From the NCBI RefSeq assembly GCF_006345805.1, contig NC_043010.1, positions 62,124,001 to 62,188,000 of the forward strand: 64,000 bases of DNA, read 5' to 3'. Each line of letters starts with the position of its first letter. Positions within the stretch are counted from its first letter, which is position 1. This DNA comes from Octopus sinensis. Its lineage: Eukaryota. This document shows, in pieces, positions 1-59,755 of this stretch. Made by a program: the position numbers and the translations under genes. The notes beneath the pieces are model-generated. The model was not told where the DNA came from. It made no database searches and was given only the letters and a program-made list of their open reading frames with translations.

Positions 1-984
1 TTAGAGATCCATCGAAGAACACACACAGGTGAGAAACCGTTCCAGTGTGATTTGTGTCCGCAGAGATTTGCTCGGAAAGATACCCGTGCAATTCACCGTC
101 GAATCCACACCGGGGAGAAGCCATTTAGCTGCAATATCTGTGGAGAGAGATATGCTCAGCGTGAGAGGTTACGTATACATACACACATCCACACAGGAGA
201 GAAACCTTACCAATGTGATTTTTGCCCCAAACAGTTCTTTCAAAAAAGCACGCTGACAATACACAGGCGCTGCCACACCAACGAAAGACCTTTGTTTCAA
301 TGTGACGTTTGTTTCAAGGAATTTGTCCAGCGGGATTATTTAACCGTTCACAAACGCATCCATACTGGCGAGAAGCCATATCATTGTGATATTTGCCTCC
401 AAAAGTTCTCCCGCCGAGACACTTTATCGACACACAGGAAAACTCACTCCGGCACGAAGGAGTTTCAGTGTGAAATCTGCTACAAGAAATTTGCCAACAA
501 AGATTATCTGCGAGTTCACCAGCGGACCCACACGGGAGAGAAGCCTTTCCATTGTGAAATATGTTTGAAAAAATTCGCTCGCAGGGACTACCTTCAGGTT
601 CACAAGAGATCCCACACCGGGGAGAAACCTTTCCAGTGTGACATCTGCTTCAAACAGTTTGCACAGAAAGACTACCTTTTGGTGCATCGAAGGACCCACA
701 CGGGGGAGAAGCCTTACCACTGTGATATGTGTAGTCAGAGGTTTGCTCGGCGAGATTCTTTGCAGAGGCATAAAAAGACTCACCAGCACATCGGAGGGTT
801 TGTGAAAATCAAAGAGAATTATTTGGACACAGACGACACAAACGACACGATCGAGACGTCTCCTCCTCCCCCGCCGCCGCCCCCTCCGCCTCCTTCACAT
901 CCACTTCCGGCCCCTGCACATCAGTTAGCCACAACTAGCAACACAGATGAGTTTCCTCCAGTCAGTAAATACTTGTGGTTGTGA
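1..984 (+). CDS. C2H2 zinc-finger protein, 3' part (5' end outside window): 1 partial + 9 complete fingers, acidic stretch, poly-Pro tail
   Basis: Frame 1 is open from base 1 (LEIHRRTHTGEKPFQCDLC...) to TGA 982-984; repeated CxxC-x12-HxxxH with TGEKP linkers. The ORF-track start at 52 is an internal TTG, not the true start. Confidence 0.97.
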   Translation, partial: LEIHRRTHTGEKPFQCDLCPQRFARKDTRAIHRRIHTGEKPFSCNICGERYAQRERLRIHTHIHTGEKPYQCDFCPKQFFQKSTLTIHRRCHTNERPLFQCDVCFKEFVQRDYLTVHKRIHTGEKPYHCDICLQKFSRRDTLSTHRKTHSGTKEFQCEICYKKFANKDYLRVHQRTHTGEKPFHCEICLKKFARRDYLQVHKRSHTGEKPFQCDICFKQFAQKDYLLVHRRTHTGEKPYHCDMCSQRFARRDSLQRHKKTHQHIGGFVKIKENYLDTDDTNDTIETSPPPPPPPPPPPSHPLPAPAHQLATTSNTDEFPPVSKYLWL

Positions 985-7576: not shown

Positions 7577-7999
7577 TTCTTTTTTCTTTTCTTTTATTCT
7601 TTTACTTGTTTCAGTCATTTGACTGCGGCCATGCTGGAGCATCGCCTTTAGTCGAACAACTTGACCCCGGGACTTATTCTTTTTGTAAGCCCAGTACTTA
7701 TTCTATCGGGCTCTTTTTTGCCGAACCGCTAAGTGACGGGGACGTAAACACACCAGCATCGGTTGTCAAGCAATGCTAGGGGAACAAACACAGACATACA
7801 AACACACACACATACATATATATATATACATATATACGACAGGCTTCTTTCAGTTTCCGTCTACCAAATTCACTCACAAGGCATTAGTCAGCCCGGGGCT
7901 ATAGCAGAAGATACTTGCCCAAGATGCCACGCAGTGGGACTGAACCCGGAACCATGTGGTTGGTTAGCAAGCTACTTACCACACAGCCACTCCTGCGCC
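7577..7999 (-). mobile_element. SINE family A, full length
   Basis: Reverse complement of the family A consensus. Confidence 0.93.
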
Positions 8000-8360: not shown

Positions 8361-8758
8361 GGCGCAGGAGTGGCTGTGTGGTAAGTAGTTTGCAAACCAA
8401 CCACATGGTTTCGGGTTCAGTCCCACTGCGTGGCATCTTGGGCAAGTATCTTCTGCTATAGCCACAGGCCGACAAATGCTTTGTGAGTGGATTTGGTAGA
8501 CAGAAACTGAAAGAAGCCCGTCGTTTATATGTATATATATATATATGTATGTGTGTGTTTATGTGTCTGTGTTTGTCCAACTAGTATCGCTTGACAACCG
8601 ATGCTGGTGTGTTTACGTCCCCGCCACTTAGCGGTTTGGCAAAAGAGACCGATAGAATAAGTACTGGGCTTACAAAGAATAAGTCCTGGGGTCAATTTGC
8701 TCAACTAAAGGCAGTGCTCCAGCATGGCCGCAGTCAAATGACTGAAACAAGTAAAAGA
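8361..8758 (+). mobile_element. SINE family A, full length
   Basis: Starts ggcgcaggagtggctgtgtgg, ends tgaaacaagtaaaaga. Confidence 0.93.
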
Positions 8759-10159: not shown

Positions 10160-10435
10160 GTTTATTTATCTGTCTGTCTATCTATCTCTCTATATATCTA
10201 TCTATCTACCTACCTACCTATCTATCTGTCTCTCTCTCTCTATCTACCTACCTACCTATCTATGTATTTGTTTGTCTGTCTCTCTCTCTCTCTACCTACC
10301 TATCTATCTATCTATCAATCTATCTATCTATCTACCTACCTATCTATCTATAATCTATATCTATATCTACATATATACATACACACAGATCAGTATGTCT
10401 GTTAGTATATACTATATATATATATATATATATAA
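10160..10435. repeat. (CTAT)n/(CTAC)n/(CT)n/(TA)n microsatellite
   Basis: Directly visible. Confidence 0.95.
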
Positions 10436-10604
10436 CTTGATATGATCGGTCTTTTAAATAACGATCTTATCCTTATTTAATATATCAATATATATATAAA
10501 TAAATTTTTAAATGAATTGATCTGTGCAATGCCGTTCAACAACAAAAGCTCTCCATCTGGCGAGAGTAAAATATTGTTTTTTATGATCACCTCGCATGTA
10601 TAAA

Positions 10605-10644
10605 CCATGCTACTAATAGTTTCACGTACGTTCTTCAGGTGTGG
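10605..10644 (-). ncRNA. Minimal type I hammerhead ribozyme motif, core intact, stem I partly decayed
   Basis: Minus strand CCACAC-CUGAAGA-ACGUACGU-GAAA-CUAUUAG-UA-GCAUGG. Confidence 0.7.
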
Positions 10645-10734
10645 ACTATTTTACCAAACTAAGCAGTTTAAATAATGGACTGAACATAAAACAGCACAGT
10701 AACAAAAATAAATTAAGAAACATAGGAACATAAC

Positions 10735-15520: not shown

Positions 15521-15777
15521 ATACATTCACACATAATTACATTACGCGTGTGAGTGCACCAGTGCAAACTGGTGCGTCGAGTTCCTTTACGGCAAAGTGT
15601 AAAATCTTATCAATCTGATAAATAGAGGTTGATAAAACGAGTTCTGGGGATGATACGATCGAGTGAAAATCTTCCAAGATGGTGCCCCAGCTTGGCCACA
15701 GTACAATGACTGAAACCAATAGCAGAAACAAAAAATAACCTATACATACACATAACACACAGACTACATATATATAT

Positions 15778-15841
<64 letters not shown>

Positions 15842-15846
15842 GTATA

Positions 15847-16392
15847 TATAATTTACAAGATAAGGGCAAAAGAAAAATTCTAATGCCAGATACGCCGAAA
15901 CAAATTTTATGCTATATCAATTATAAATAGATTAGTCTTCAACTTCCGGATTCTATCACTCTGTGAAAGTTTCTAGTTCAAATCACACGTGTCTCGAGGT
16001 GCGCCGAAGATTTTCCTATTTTGGATATATTTGGGGTACTTAAGTCTGCTCGGGACTTGGTGCTTGCTTCTTCCGTGGGTATGAATAAGTATTTCACTTA
16101 TATCTCGCGTATGTGCTGCTGAAGAGGGGAAAATTTCTTGTGAATTAACCCCGAAATTGGACCAATACGGTAATAACGAATTTTTTAGAGATTTCTATCG
16201 GTTTGTTTCGAGACGCATAAATTTAATAGTTATCGACAATTTTTTTGTTTTGGCGTATCAGGCATTAGAATTTTTCTTTTGCCCTTATCTTGTAAATTAT
16301 GTATAAATTTTACCTTTAAAGGCTTTTTTTAATATGCTGGCCATTGATAAAATTTTTTTTCCCGAAAATTTTTTTATCCTATATCAATTATA
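15847..16392 (+). mobile_element. Penelope-like/retrozyme-like non-coding element: inverted 5' segment, internal hammerhead, terminal direct repeat
   Basis: 15847-15905 is the reverse complement of 16240-16303; ttttat(g/c)ctatatcaattata repeated at ~15905-15924 and ~16372-16392; hammerhead at 16114-16172; embedded in (TA)n. Confidence 0.75.
16114..16172 (+). ncRNA. Type I hammerhead ribozyme motif, core intact
   Basis: UGCUG-CUGAAGA-GGGG-(19 nt)-CCCC-GAAA-UUGG-A-CCAA-UA-CGGUA; predicted cleavage after 16167. Confidence 0.8.
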
Positions 16393-16398
16393 TGTATG

Positions 16399-16436
<38 letters not shown>

Positions 16437-16443
16437 CACACAT

Positions 16444-16581
16444 ATACAAAGAAAAAGGAGGTAGTCAGAATTTTGGATAAACATTTATTATTTGGAGAAT
16501 TGCCTGATAATTATCTGAAATAAGATGTAAGCACCAAATAAATAATTATCCAAAATTTTGACATCTTCCTTTTTCTTTATA
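16444..16581. repeat. Fold-back element (arms 16444-16495 / 16534-16581)
   Basis: aaagaaaaagga..gtcagaattttggataa pairs with ttatccaaaattttgac..tcctttttcttt. Confidence 0.8.
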
Positions 16582-27620: not shown

Positions 27621-28017
27621 ATTATTTACATTATTTACATTTGACAGATATTTTGTCCTCATCTTGTTTGTTGTTAACACAACGTTTTCGGCTGATATAC
27701 CCTCCAGCCTTCATCAGGCAAATGGCATAGTGGTTAAGAGCACGGGCTACTAACCCCAAGATTCCGAGTTCAATTCCAAGCAGTGACCTGAATAATAATA
27801 ATAATAATCATCATCATCATTTAGCGTCCGCTTTCCATGCTAGCATGGGTTGGACGGTTCAACTGGGGTCTGTGAAGCCAGAAGGCTGCATCAGGCCCAG
27901 TCTGATCTGGCACCCAAAACACCTGATAAAGGCTGGAGGGTATATCAGCCGAAAGGTTGTGTTAACAACAAACAAGATGAGGACAAATATCCATCAAATG
28001 CAAATAATGTAAATAAT
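27621..28017 (+). mobile_element. Composite: inverted hammerhead-bearing arm, tRNA-like head, (AAT)n, family C fragment, direct hammerhead-bearing arm
   Basis: 27621-27718 is the reverse complement of 27922-28017; A box 27723-27733, B box 27766-27777; AACAC-CUGAU(G/A)A-A-GGCUG..CAGCC-GAAA(C/G)-GUU-GUGUU. Confidence 0.8.
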
Positions 28018-51087: not shown

Positions 51088-51336
51088 ATCATCATCCTCA
51101 TCATCGTTTAACGTCCGCTTACCATGCTAGCATGGGTTGGACGATTTTGACTGAGGGTTGGCAAACCAGATGGCTGCACCAGGCTCCAATCTTTATCTGG
51201 CAGAGTTTCTACTGCTGGATGCCCTTCCCCACTCCAACCACTCCGAGAGTGTAGTGGGTGCTTTTTATGTGCCACCGGCATGGGGGCCAGTCAGGCGGTA
51301 CTGACTGGCCCCCATGCCGGTGGCACGTAAAAAGCA
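51088..51336 (-). mobile_element. Family C with a 5' fold-back hairpin (51259-51336)
   Basis: 36-nt arms, 6-nt loop, one G-T mismatch. Confidence 0.9.
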
Positions 51337-57290: not shown

Positions 57291-57876
57291 TCCTCAACTG
57301 TTATCAATCCCAGCAGGATGAAGGACGAGGTTAACGTTGAGAGGATTTGAATGTAGAGTGTAATGAGTGGGAAGACATGGTGCTAAGCATTTTGTCTGAG
57401 GCTCTCACCATTTTACCAGCTGACCACCTTTTCAGAATATATAAGGGTTTCAAATTTTGACATAGAATCAGCAATTTCAGGAGGAGGGGCTAAGTCAATT
57501 ACATCGACCCCAATACTCGACTGGTGCTTTTATTATTGACCCCAAAAAAGGCAGAATTGTTAGAACACAGGGCGAAGAGCTGAGCAGTGTTCCGAGTTCA
57601 AATTCAGCCGATGTTGACTTTGAACTTTCATCCTTTTGGAGTCGATTAATTAAGTACCAGTTATGCACTGGGGTCGATGTAATTGACTTAATCCCTTGAG
57701 GCCTTGCGCTACCAGTAGAAAGGATGAAAGGCAAAGTCAACCTCGGCGGAATTTGAACTCGTAATTAATTAATAATAATGATGATGCATTCATGCTATGG
57801 AAGCATTTAATTCAGAAACGTGAAAATTCTGTAATTCTATTAGTTTTAGTGCACATATTTCCTGCAGTCATATTAA

Positions 57877-58097
57877 CCCTTTTTTTACCAACCTGGCTGA
57901 AACCAGCTCTGGCTCTGAGTACAAATGTCTTGTTTTCATAAGTTTTGAATTAAAATCTTCCATCAAATCTTAGTCACAATTTATGTTCCTAACACTAGCT
58001 GAATGATAGCTAAGTTATTTTACTAAATTCTTTGTTATATTTAAAATTAATTGAAAGAAACACAGAGCATCTTAATAGAAATATGGTAACAAAAGGG
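57877..58097. mobile_element. piggyBac-type MITE P1, copy 1
   Basis: TTAA-ccctttttttacca ... tggtaacaaaaggg-TTAA. Confidence 0.88.
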
Positions 58098-58128
58098 TTA
58101 AAATATATAATAGAGAAACAATTCTTAA

Positions 58129-58345
58129 CCCTTTTGATACCAACCTGGCTGAAACCACCTCTGGCTCTGAGTAGAAATGTCTTGTTTTCAAAAGTTTTGA
58201 ATTAGAATCTGCCACCAAACCTGAGTCACAATTTATGTTCCTAACACTAGCTGAATGATAACTAAGTTATTTTACTAAATTCTTTGTTATATTTAAAATT
58301 AATTGAAACACAAAGCATCTCAACAGAAATAGGGTAACGAAAGGG
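58129..58345. mobile_element. piggyBac-type MITE P1, copy 2
   Basis: TTAA-cccttttgatacc ... ggtaacgaaaggg-TTAA; highly similar to copy 1. Confidence 0.88.
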
Positions 58346-59137
58346 TTAAACCAGGTGAACTGTCTCTGTTCACTATCTCCATCACTTTTAGTTACCTGCA
58401 AAAGATATTCATTTCAAATTTCAGCACAAGGCCGGCAATATTAGTGGGAGAGGGGTTAGTCAATTACATTGAACTCAGTACTCAAATGGTACCTTATTTT
58501 ATTGAGCCTGAAAGGATGAACGACAAAGTTGGCCCTGGTGTGATTTGAACTCAGAAGTTCAAAACTCTTCTGTTCAATGTTCAAATGGTTCTTCCAGCCC
58601 AACAATATTGATTCAGAAAATACCCTTCTCAAACTTCTTTTCTTTTTTTACTATTATAGGGCCCTTACATGAAGAAACCAACTTGGGTAACTTATAAGAA
58701 TATATTTACCAGAGAATTGGAAGGGATTAAGAGATGCTTGCAGGATCCCAGAGTTTAGTCCTGATGGAACTGGGCTTTGAAAAGGGACCAGAATGAGCCT
58801 ATGTCAATGGGTATTAATTAGTTACGAATATATATGAAAAAAAGGGATGAATGTATATGAAGTAAGGCTCTACTCCCTTATTCCTATGTGTTTCTGCGCA
58901 TGTGCATGGGGAAGGGGCAATATGTGTGTATGTATGTATAAAAAACTGAGGGTCTATCTGAGACAAGGAAACTTTAATAAAAAGGATTAAATTAGAACAT
59001 AGTCATGTTTTCAATGCATGCTTAAAAGAAGAGCTAGTCCTCATACATACACACACATATTCATATAATTTATACTCATGTTTTCCGCATGCATATGTAT
59101 ATATGTATGTATATATATATACCGTATCTATCTGTCA

Positions 59138-59174: not shown

Positions 59175-59342
59175 AAGTTAATCCAAACAAGAAAGCACAA
59201 AAAAACACAACAACGTGAGGACGTGGGATAAAAATTTAGTATTATTGGATACTCAGGAAAGAAGGAGGGTTTCACGTTTCGAGCGGAGCTCTTCGTCGGA
59301 AACATAGGAGAAGGGAAGACAGAGGAAAAAAAATCGCCAAGC
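59174..59342 (-). mobile_element. Penelope-like terminal fragment with decayed minimal hammerhead (59269-59303), inserted in (CTAT)n
   Basis: Minus strand GUUU-CCGACGA-A-GAGC-UCC-GCUC-GAAAC-GUG-AAAC. Confidence 0.68.
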
Positions 59343-59755
59343 CATCTATCTATCTATCTATCTCTGTGTTACCAATTTTGACCCTCCGCAAAAATCCCCA
59401 ATTTTATTTAATTTGCTTTGCAGGAGCAACTGTTTGATCAAAAGCATATATTGTTGTTAAATGCTCGAAATACAAGAGTAGAAAAACAGCCAACAACTGA
59501 TGAAGAGTCGTTCTTTATGTTGTTTGTCTTGTTCACCAATAGTTTATATTCCATGTATTCGTATTTCCTATTTTTTTGTTGTACACGTTTCGTGATGTCC
59601 TGCACCCACATATGCATGTATATATATATGTATAGATGTATGTACATATACGTATGCATATATATATTATTTATATTATATATGTGTGTGCGTGTGTGAA
59701 CGCGTGTGTGTGTCTGTCTATGAATATATGTGTATTTGTGTGTATATATGTATAT

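What the first reader, a model, noticed from the sequence alone, without database searches (positions are those of the whole stretch)
15847..16392. Best-preserved hammerhead inside a circularly permuted-looking element with an inverted 5' arm
Seen: all core nucleotides present (CUGAAGA 16119-16125, G-C closed stem II GGGG/CCCC extendable by AAUUU/GAAUU, GAAA 16153-16156, AUA triplet ending 16167, stem I UGCUG/CGGUA with two G-U). Stem III UUGG-A-CCAA has a 1-nt loop and would need dimer pairing. The ~490-nt unit starts and ends with the same ~20-nt sequence (ttttat.ctatatcaattata), has the ribozyme in the middle and a ~60-nt inverted duplication at its 5' end. Inference: reverse transcription of a circular or multimeric RNA template, as proposed for retrozymes. 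It lies antisense to the inferred 3' UTR of the - ZNF gene, so it would not cut that mRNA, but its arms could form dsRNA in it.
Basis: partly seen in the sequence, partly recalled or inferred. Interest (0 to 1): 0.75.

Follow-up and report, generated by a model that had tools for sequence, protein, structure and literature searches.

The report
Small Penelope-type retroelement insertion with hammerhead
A real self-cleaving hammerhead RNA motif sits inside a short, protein-free mobile element that was pasted into a TA repeat in the way already described for Penelope-like retroelements, so it is a tidy new example of a known kind rather than proof of a circular RNA.

Summary
The anatomy is confirmed: a complete type I hammerhead at 16114-16172 (0 of 300 shuffles match it), a 467-nt unit preceded by a 21-nt copy of its own 3' end, and a 57-nt inverted 5' arm, inside a (TA)n array with a weakly supported 16-nt target duplication. 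This is the published layout of Penelope-like element (PLE) insertions in miniature. The 1-nt loop on helix III is common in Hydra-clade PLEs, including one from Octopus bimaculoides. New here: the arm starts at the unit's only near-perfect (TA)4 match (1 of 460 sites), pointing to second-strand priming by the target, and the ribozyme folds far better as a dimer. Best reading: a young non-autonomous PLE derivative, working like a retrozyme monomer, copied from a template longer than one unit. A circle is allowed but not needed; the unit shows no viroid-like fold. The 3' UTR claim is unsupported. No second copy could be found, so family-level tests remain open.

The parts
15835..15850 (+). Left candidate target-site duplication (16 nt, compound TATG/TA repeat); its last 8 nt overlap the outer end of the inverted arm
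   Evidence: Identical to 16391-16406. Weak: 7.4% of 30624 random array pairs give an overlap of 16 or more, 1.5% for non-pure repeats; the 16-mer occurs 17 times in the window.
15848..15904 (-). Inverted 5'-truncated copy (reverse complement of 16244-16300), head-to-head with the main unit
   Evidence: 2 mismatches in 57 (15888, 15897); register continues to 15843 with one more mismatch at 15847.
15905..15925 (+). 21-nt direct copy of the unit's 3' end (miniature pseudo-LTR / partial tandem)
   Evidence: 20 of 21 identical to 16372-16392, period 467; a further 6-nt in-register match at 15895-15900 may be junction microhomology.
15926..16392 (+). 467-nt non-coding unit, 34% GC, CpG not depleted (o/e 1.35 vs 0.54 window-wide), hence probably young
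   Evidence: No Pfam match in 4 of its 20 frames tested; no homologue of the longest plus frame by word search; one borderline unnamed hit at E 8e-4 by full scan, not examined.
16114..16172 (+). Type I hammerhead ribozyme; predicted cut between 16167 and 16168; helix I can extend across a 3x3 loop by 3 pairs (16108-16110/16176-16178)
   Evidence: Cleavage itself not tested.
16156..16166 (+). Self-complementary helix III (5 bp + 1-nt loop)
   Evidence: Intermolecular duplex -8.9 kcal/mol vs +1.8 as a hairpin; 1-nt loop III in 17 of 26 Hydra-clade rows of PMC8557442 File S2.
16244..16300 (+). Source of the inverted arm inside the unit; pairs with it in any transcript across the whole insertion
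   Evidence: Mean pair probability 0.97; accounts for the z of -8.9 of the whole insertion since the unit alone has z about -0.5.
16298..16305 (+). Inferred second priming site: the only 8-mer in the unit matching the target's (TA)4 end at 7 of 8
   Evidence: 1 of 460 positions with the primer end at 15850; 2 of 460 and 4 of 460 (6 of 8) with the end shifted by 1 or 2 nt.
16372..16392 (+). 3' end of the unit, inferred first reverse-transcription start; 87-92 nt beyond the arm's start
16391..16406 (+). Right candidate target-site duplication at the start of the right (TA)n array

Best explanation
A single, young insertion of a short non-autonomous derivative of an endonuclease-bearing Penelope-like element (PLE), working like a monomer of an animal non-LTR retrozyme. 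Steps: (1, inferred) a donor with head-to-tail 467-nt units was transcribed, giving an RNA longer than one unit, either a linear multimer or a circle made from it by hammerhead cleavage and ligation; (2, inferred from known PLE biochemistry) the reverse transcriptase/GIY-YIG protein of an autonomous PLE, plausibly Hydra-clade or Neptune, nicked both strands of a (TA)n array; (3, shown as layout) one cDNA began at the unit's 3' end and ran one unit plus 21 nt, straight through an uncut or religated ribozyme site; (4, layout shown, priming inferred) the other strand's TA end annealed to the TA-like 8-mer at 16298-16305 and primed about 57-62 nt, giving the inverted arm (twin or dual priming); (5, inferred) the two cDNAs were joined, losing 66-71 nt of the upstream unit and probably leaving a target duplication. 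The lone ribozyme is intact because the copy is young; alone it probably cleaves poorly, needing a partner copy or a protein to form helix III. No host function is implied.
For: Complete type I hammerhead beyond chance. Inverted truncated copy + short direct repeat + unit, in a TA array, as described for PLEs (PMC8557442 passages; A. vaga Pen2a with inverted pLTR and 9-bp TSD, PMC3846280). Hydra clade: 1-nt loop III in 17 of 26 rows, (TA)n preference in 26 of 27 families, one family annotated with a 5'-truncated inverted copy, one from Octopus bimaculoides with the same 7-nt core and a 1-nt A loop. Host is probably an octopod: two octopod proteins rank first (59%) of 120 against the window's first ZNF array, next 51%. 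A PLE protein nicks and extends both strands, prefers AT-rich DNA and uses uncleaved RNA (PMC11167929). Arm begins at the best TA match in the unit, 1 of 460, as twin priming predicts (PMC2837659). Double hammerhead -29.9 kcal/mol, within 1.0 of the unconstrained cofold. Animal retrozymes are related to PLE pLTRs and often occur as monomers (bioRxiv 10.64898/2026.07.22.740005). At 1.9% drift per copy, 41 ribozyme positions stay unmutated with probability 0.46, so no selection need be invoked. Other PLE-like hammerhead remnants lie in the same window.
Against: Only one copy: none elsewhere in the window, so the unit boundary 15925/15926 rests on one junction. No sequence link to any autonomous PLE: an 18-nt ribozyme stretch is absent from the PMC8557442 supplement, and by eye the 3' end of Hydra-1_Obim is unrelated and ends about 50 nt after its ribozyme, not about 220. 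Helix III here is 5 bp and opens A-U; all 26 Hydra rows open A-C and have 3-4 bp. The 87-92 nt offset between the two starts exceeds the 30-40 nt PLE tail, and the characterised PLE starts at sites not homologous to the target. TSD support is weak. No reverse transcriptase or GIY-YIG remnant in 131 frames of the window tested. Rfam finds no hammerhead. In local context the monomeric active fold is only 1.4 kcal/mol above the minimum, so strict dimer dependence is not shown.
Confidence: 0.6

Rival explanations
1. 5'-truncated 3' end of an autonomous PLE: the 467 nt are 3' UTR plus pLTR, and the 21-nt repeat arose when the enzyme re-initiated on a second RNA; no short non-autonomous family exists.
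For: Most PLE hammerheads occur as single truncated copies (PMC4209133). The layout of truncated direct and inverted pieces is routine for PLEs. The 188 nt upstream of the ribozyme are short enough to be 3' UTR only (compare Hydra consensi, by eye).
Against: In described partial tandems the downstream copy is the full-length one; here it would have to be truncated too, needing an extra template jump. No ORF end in the frames tested.
Confidence: 0.24
2. DNA MITE with 57-nt terminal inverted repeats inserted at TA.
For: Long near-perfect inverted repeats, about 455 nt apart end to end, TA context, no ORF.
Against: The right repeat ends 92 nt inside the element, and the true 3' end is duplicated just inside the left repeat, tying the 'flank' to the element; the candidate TSD encloses everything; a hammerhead is unexplained.
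Confidence: 0.04
3. Non-autonomous Helentron (HINE/DINE-1 type) with subterminal inverted repeats and a 3' hairpin.
For: One repeat is terminal and the other subterminal; a weak hairpin is predicted near the 3' end.
Against: HINE subTIRs are 12-15 bp, 38-60 bp from the 3' end, at TT sites without target modification (PMC4067079); here 57 bp, 92 nt, TA array, plus a direct repeat and a ribozyme.
Confidence: 0.03
4. Host-recruited regulatory element: the arms form dsRNA in the ZNF 3' UTR, or the ribozyme cuts an antisense transcript.
For: ZNF ORF at 22196-20070 on the minus strand is real (Pfam zf-C2H2); arms pair at 0.97 if transcribed.
Against: Three AATAAA and seven ATTAAA lie between the stop and the element; the last AATAAA is followed by a U/GU-rich tract and would end the mRNA just before the element. 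Youth of the copy explains the intact ribozyme. No transcript data.
Confidence: 0.04
5. Local DNA repair or template-switch rearrangement of an older insertion made the arm and the 21-nt repeat after integration.
For: Junctions lie in A/T runs and microsatellites; 6-nt microhomology near the inner junction.
Against: Pieces end exactly at the element's 3' end and at the best target-matching site, and reproduce a known insertion layout.
Confidence: 0.05

Closest known systems
EN+ Penelope-like elements, insertion layout (Penelope/Poseidon, Neptune; A. vaga Pen2a, PMC3846280; PMC8557442 Fig. 2)
   Same: Head-to-head inverted 5'-truncated copy, partial tandem, sense type I hammerhead in the 3' part, microsatellite target, possible TSD.
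   Different: No ORF; direct repeat only 21 nt; offset between the two starts 87-92 nt instead of a 30-40 nt tail; no autonomous partner identified.
Hydra-clade PLEs, incl. Hydra-1_Obim of Octopus bimaculoides (PMC8557442 Files S1, S2, S7)
   Same: Helix III closed by a 1-nt loop (17 of 26 rows), (TA)n target (26 of 27 families); Hydra-1_Obim shares the 7-nt core and the A loop.
   Different: Helix III 5 bp and opens A-U rather than A-C; longer stem II with a 2x2 loop; no visible sequence likeness to Hydra-1_Obim's 3' end (by eye).
Animal non-LTR retrozymes (PMC7229834; bioRxiv 10.64898/2026.07.22.740005)
   Same: Non-coding, type I hammerhead, low GC, unit of a few hundred nt, no LTRs, dimer-favoured cleavage as in axolotl, PLE-linked; monomer copies are common.
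   Different: One unit plus 21 nt, not a tandem array; slightly above the 150-450 bp range of PMC7229834 (within 51-972 of the preprint); not strongly self-paired; circular RNA not shown; carries a 5' inversion.
L1 twin-priming inversions (PMC2837659)
   Same: 5' inversion with internal deletion, started where the target overhang matches the RNA, within TSDs.
   Different: No poly(A); the inverted piece overlaps the forward unit, which needs a template longer than one unit or two RNAs.

Membership tests
Type I hammerhead ribozyme | Conserved core C3-A9, G12-A14, A15.1-U16.1, H17 not G, G10.1-C11.1, three helices with helix I open | tested here: met
Type I hammerhead ribozyme | Match to an Rfam hammerhead model | tested here: not met
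   (best 150 of 316 rows seen). The 1-nt loop III and long stem II may fall outside the models; that is inference.
Type I hammerhead ribozyme | Self-cleavage at 16167/16168 | not testable with these tools
   Folding only: stem I probability 0.01 in the unit and full insertion; active monomer 1.4 kcal/mol above minimum locally; dimer favourable.
EN+ PLE-mobilised insertion | Partial tandem forming a pseudo-LTR | tested here: met
   21-nt copy of the 3' end precedes the unit.
EN+ PLE-mobilised insertion | Inverted 5'-truncated copy adjacent at the 5' end | tested here: met
   15848-15904.
EN+ PLE-mobilised insertion | Sense type I hammerhead in the 3' part | tested here: met
   orientation agrees with the arm being 5'.
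EN+ PLE-mobilised insertion | Microsatellite or AT-rich target | tested here: met
   (TA)n arrays at 15768-15850 and 16389-16432.
EN+ PLE-mobilised insertion | Optional 30-40 nt tail at one end | tested here: inconclusive
   A one-sided extension exists but is 87-92 nt; the tail is described as optional.
EN+ PLE-mobilised insertion | Target-site duplication | tested here: inconclusive
   16-nt candidate; chance 1.5-7.4%.
EN+ PLE-mobilised insertion | Sequence homology to the pLTR of an autonomous PLE in the same genome | not testable with these tools
   No animal genome collection available; exact 18-mer absent from one supplement.
Autonomous PLE | ORF with telomerase-like RT and GIY-YIG endonuclease | tested here: not met
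   Longest frames inside the unit 73 aa, no Pfam match; none in 131 window frames.
Hydra-clade PLE | Helix III of 3-4 bp opening A-C with 1-3 nt loop | tested here: not met
   1-nt loop shared, but 5 bp and opens A-U. Works like, not filed as.
Hydra-clade PLE | Protein motifs (RWK, DKT, no CCHH) | not testable with these tools
   No ORF.
Animal non-LTR retrozyme | Tandem array of two or more ribozyme-bearing units | tested here: not met
   One unit plus 21 nt at this locus, no other copy in the window; arrays elsewhere in the genome unchecked.
Animal non-LTR retrozyme | Non-coding unit of a few hundred nt, GC below 45-50%, type I hammerhead, no LTRs | tested here: met
   467 nt, 34% GC; PBS/PPT not searched.
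Animal non-LTR retrozyme | Highly self-paired monomer | tested here: not met
   z -0.48 to -0.78 against 40 shuffles each, 52-56% paired, linear or circular, both strands.
Animal non-LTR retrozyme | Expressed as circular RNA | not testable with these tools
   No RNA data.
DNA MITE | Inverted repeats at both termini | tested here: not met
   Right repeat ends 92 nt inside. Definition from general knowledge.
HINE / Helentron | 12-15 bp subTIRs, TT target, no TSD | tested here: not met
   57 bp arm, TA array.

The most novel reading that the evidence does not exclude
The locus is a frozen record of a 467-nt circular RNA of an unreported octopod retrozyme family being reverse-transcribed past its ligation junction and primed twice by a nicked TA array, with a Hydra-like ribozyme. 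That would give junction-level evidence that retrozyme circles are the actual template mobilised by PLE (possibly Hydra-clade) machinery, a step the papers read here propose but do not show.
Probability: 0.2. Interest if true: 0.6.

Novelty: new member of a known kind. Interest (0 to 1): 0.3.

Why it matters
Hammerheads in PLE-derived repeats number in the thousands in many animal genomes (PMC4209133), so one more is ordinary. Its value is as a compact test case: 546 nt hold both priming sites, the inversion junction, a read-through ribozyme and a candidate TSD. With more copies it could tell whether PLE inversions come from twin priming on one multimeric RNA or from two RNAs, whether short hammerhead units are copied from circles, and which PLE clade moves them. 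Searches for 'Octopus + hammerhead ribozyme' (5 papers, 4 listed), 'retrozyme + cephalopod' (2 papers, 1 listed) and two related ones returned only the PLE survey PMC8557442 as relevant, so a cephalopod retrozyme-like family seems undescribed in the library searched; repeat databases were not searchable.

Tried and rejected
Rfam: no hammerhead family hit; all listed hits in the region are microsatellite artefacts or chance. Second copy in the window: none by blastn, best outside match 14 nt. Exact 22-nt ribozyme pattern in bacterial/archaeal genomes: 0. Coding potential: 4 of the 20 frames overlapping the element scanned against Pfam, 0 hits; plus-strand 73-aa frame gave no candidates by word search and 1 borderline unnamed hit at E 8.4e-4 in the full scan, taken as chance and left unexamined because its origin is unknown. 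Host identification through the neighbouring ZNF failed; the octopod call rests on a local comparison with the other ZNF array and on my recollection that the window's repeats look like Octopus SINEs, so it is probable, not proven. RT or GIY-YIG remnants: 0 of 131 filtered frames of 75 aa or more (low-complexity and shorter frames were dropped). Alignment with the 10638 hammerhead remnant showed no homology. Viroid-like rod fold rejected. MITE and HINE rejected on anatomy. Selection on the ribozyme not needed. Unchecked: any animal genome or read collection, viral and metagenome contigs, and the supplements of the bioRxiv retrozyme preprint, which might list related sequences (its species are mostly vertebrates).

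Full report
Setting. The window is AT-rich animal DNA dense in microsatellites and interspersed repeats with two C2H2 zinc-finger ORFs, at 1-981 (+) and 22202-20070 (-). The host is probably an octopod: Octopus vulgaris and Argonauta hians proteins ranked first (59% identity) of the 120 proteins when compared with the first ZNF array, the next being 51%. Direct look-ups of the nearer ZNF named nothing close. No animal genome was available, so everything below rests on one copy.

The ribozyme is real as a motif. It is the only strict type I hammerhead in 64 kb on either strand; 0 of 300 block shuffles reached its stem lengths, though 21 of 300 gave some loose hit, and 0 of 500 reached its score under a second descriptor. 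Rfam does not report it. Helix III is an 11-nt near-palindrome that costs +1.8 kcal/mol as a hairpin but gives -8.9 as a duplex between two molecules. Two copies of 16110-16176 fold as a double hammerhead at -29.9 kcal/mol, against -17.4 for two monomers and -30.9 for the unconstrained cofold. In the unit and in the whole insertion stem II forms (0.86-0.88) but stems I and III do not (0.01). Against strict dimer dependence: in 16100-16185 the monomeric active fold, with helix I extended by 3 pairs past a 3x3 loop, is only 1.4 kcal/mol above the minimum, whose rival pairing 16108-16112/16165-16169 covers the cut site. Cleavage is untested.

Anatomy of the insertion, 5' to 3': (TA)n array; 57-nt inverted copy of 16244-16300 (2 mismatches); 21-nt direct copy of the 3' end (1 mismatch); 467-nt unit; (TA)n array. 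A 16-nt string is shared by the end of the left flank and the start of the right flank, but such overlaps arise in 7.4% of 30624 random array pairs, 1.5% if only compound repeats count, so the TSD is suggestive only. The internal duplicates differ at 3 of 79 positions (3.8%, 95% interval 0.8-10.7%) and CpG is not depleted (o/e 1.35 vs 0.54), so the copy is young; at that drift 41 ribozyme positions survive unmutated with probability 0.46. 'Best preserved' therefore reads as 'most recent', not as selected. The strong fold of the whole insertion (z -8.9) comes from the arm; the unit alone is unremarkable as a line or a circle on both strands (z -0.5 to -0.8).

How it was made. The outer end of the arm falls on 16298-16305, the only one of 460 8-mers in the unit that matches the target's (TA)4 end at 7 of 8, the odd pair being a possible G-T wobble; the result weakens to 2 or 4 of 460 if the primer end is shifted by 1 or 2 nt. 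This is what twin priming predicts: the second nicked strand anneals inside the RNA and primes an inverted cDNA with an internal deletion (PMC2837659, passages). On one RNA this needs a template of at least 616 nt, from 16244 of an upstream unit to 16392, with 66-71 nt deleted; all of it lies 3' of the upstream unit's predicted cut and includes one uncut or religated site. A linear multimer, a circle, or two separate RNAs (dual priming) all fit. These steps are inferred; only the layout is shown.

Comparison with what is known. PMC8557442 (passages, section on Hydra, and supplement parts 2, 52, 53 of 59) describes PLE insertions as partial tandems with an inverted 5'-truncated copy at the 5' end, an optional 30-40 bp tail and a bias for microsatellites. 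[quoted passage not shown] PMC11167929 (parts 1-2 of 4) shows that a PLE protein nicks and extends both strands of AT-rich DNA, starts at fixed internal sites on the RNA, and does not need ribozyme cleavage; its start sites are not homologous to the target, unlike the arm here. PMC4209133 (parts 1-2 of 4) reports thousands of mostly single PLE hammerheads per genome, dimer-dependent and weak in vitro, and already proposes circles as templates for more-than-unit copies. PMC7229834 (passages, mussel section, discussion) defines animal retrozymes as tandem 150-450 bp units expressed as circles and suggests PLEs move them; bioRxiv 10.64898/2026.07.22.740005 (parts 1-3 of 5, supplements not seen) ties them to PLE pLTRs, finds many monomers, and saw cleavage in 1 of 9 dimers tested. 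But all 26 open helix III with A-C and have 3-4 pairs, whereas this one opens A-U with 5, and no sequence likeness was seen. So it works like a retrozyme monomer moved by PLE machinery and has a Hydra-like ribozyme; it is not filed as a retrozyme (no array, no strong fold, no circle shown) nor as Hydra. It is filed as a non-autonomous PLE-type insertion.

Context makes it ordinary. The window holds other hammerhead-like remnants of unrelated sequence: a head-to-head inverted pair at 27647-27718 (-) and 27922-27991 (+) with a one-sided extension, the 'dual minimal hammerheads on opposite strands' of PMC4209133; a Hydra-like one at 10638 (-) ending at a TA array (39 of 500 shuffles give one such hit, 0 of 500 give two); and a weak variant at 59299 (-) (29 of 500 shuffles reach it).

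The UTR idea. The ZNF stop is 3675 nt away; 10 poly(A) hexamers (3 AATAAA) lie between it and the element on the minus strand, the last 92 nt before the element with a U/GU-rich tract behind it. The mRNA probably ends earlier. If read through, the arms would pair (0.97), but nothing here shows that.

Verdict. Observation confirmed; interpretation partly supported. Best reading (0.6): young non-autonomous PLE derivative copied from a longer-than-unit RNA with second-strand priming. Main rival (0.24): truncated autonomous PLE with re-initiation. Circular template specifically: about 0.2. New member of a known kind; interest 0.3. The MITE definition and the likeness of the window's repeats to Octopus SINEs are recalled, not from calls.

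Noticed in passing
window 27647-27718 (-) and 27922-27991 (+), homology extending to about 27623 and 28017: Head-to-head inverted pair (94% over 72 nt) each with a minimal type I hammerhead-like motif (extra A before stem II); the left copy runs on beyond the right one like a PLE tail; other repeats sit between them. A second, older PLE-type family.
   Followed up: partly
window about 10433-10650 (-), core at 10638: Degenerate hammerhead with 4-bp helix III and 1-nt loop like several Hydra-clade rows; ends at a (TA)n array; no homology to the focal unit.
   Followed up: partly
window 59299 (-), within about 59175-59345: Minimal hammerhead-like variant with two core departures in an element between TATC arrays; near chance level (29 of 500 shuffles).
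   Followed up: partly
window 59465-59510 (+): A GAAA box precedes a CUGAUGA box with short complementary flanks, the order of a type II/III hammerhead, in an element ending at a TA-rich array; helices I and III not evident.
   Followed up: no
window 57873-58102 and 58125-58350: Two direct copies (91%, 230 nt) of a small element, each apparently with short terminal inverted repeats; MITE-like tandem pair.
   Followed up: no
window 22196-20070 (-): 709-aa C2H2 zinc-finger ORF with long His and Gln tracts; its C-terminal 85 aa had no homologue in the word search and the exact protein is not in the collection.
   Followed up: partly
window 1-981 (+): Tandem C2H2 zinc-finger array, best matched by two octopod proteins at 59%.
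   Followed up: partly
window 51259-51336 and 16449-16577: Local palindromes (90% over 78 nt; 71% over 133 nt), the second just right of the focal insertion and covering the AATAAA at 16484.
   Followed up: no
window 7605-7999 / 8361-8751 and many other pairs: Abundant SINE-like interspersed repeats, up to about 23-fold self-coverage, often as nearby inverted pairs at 72-92% identity.
   Followed up: no
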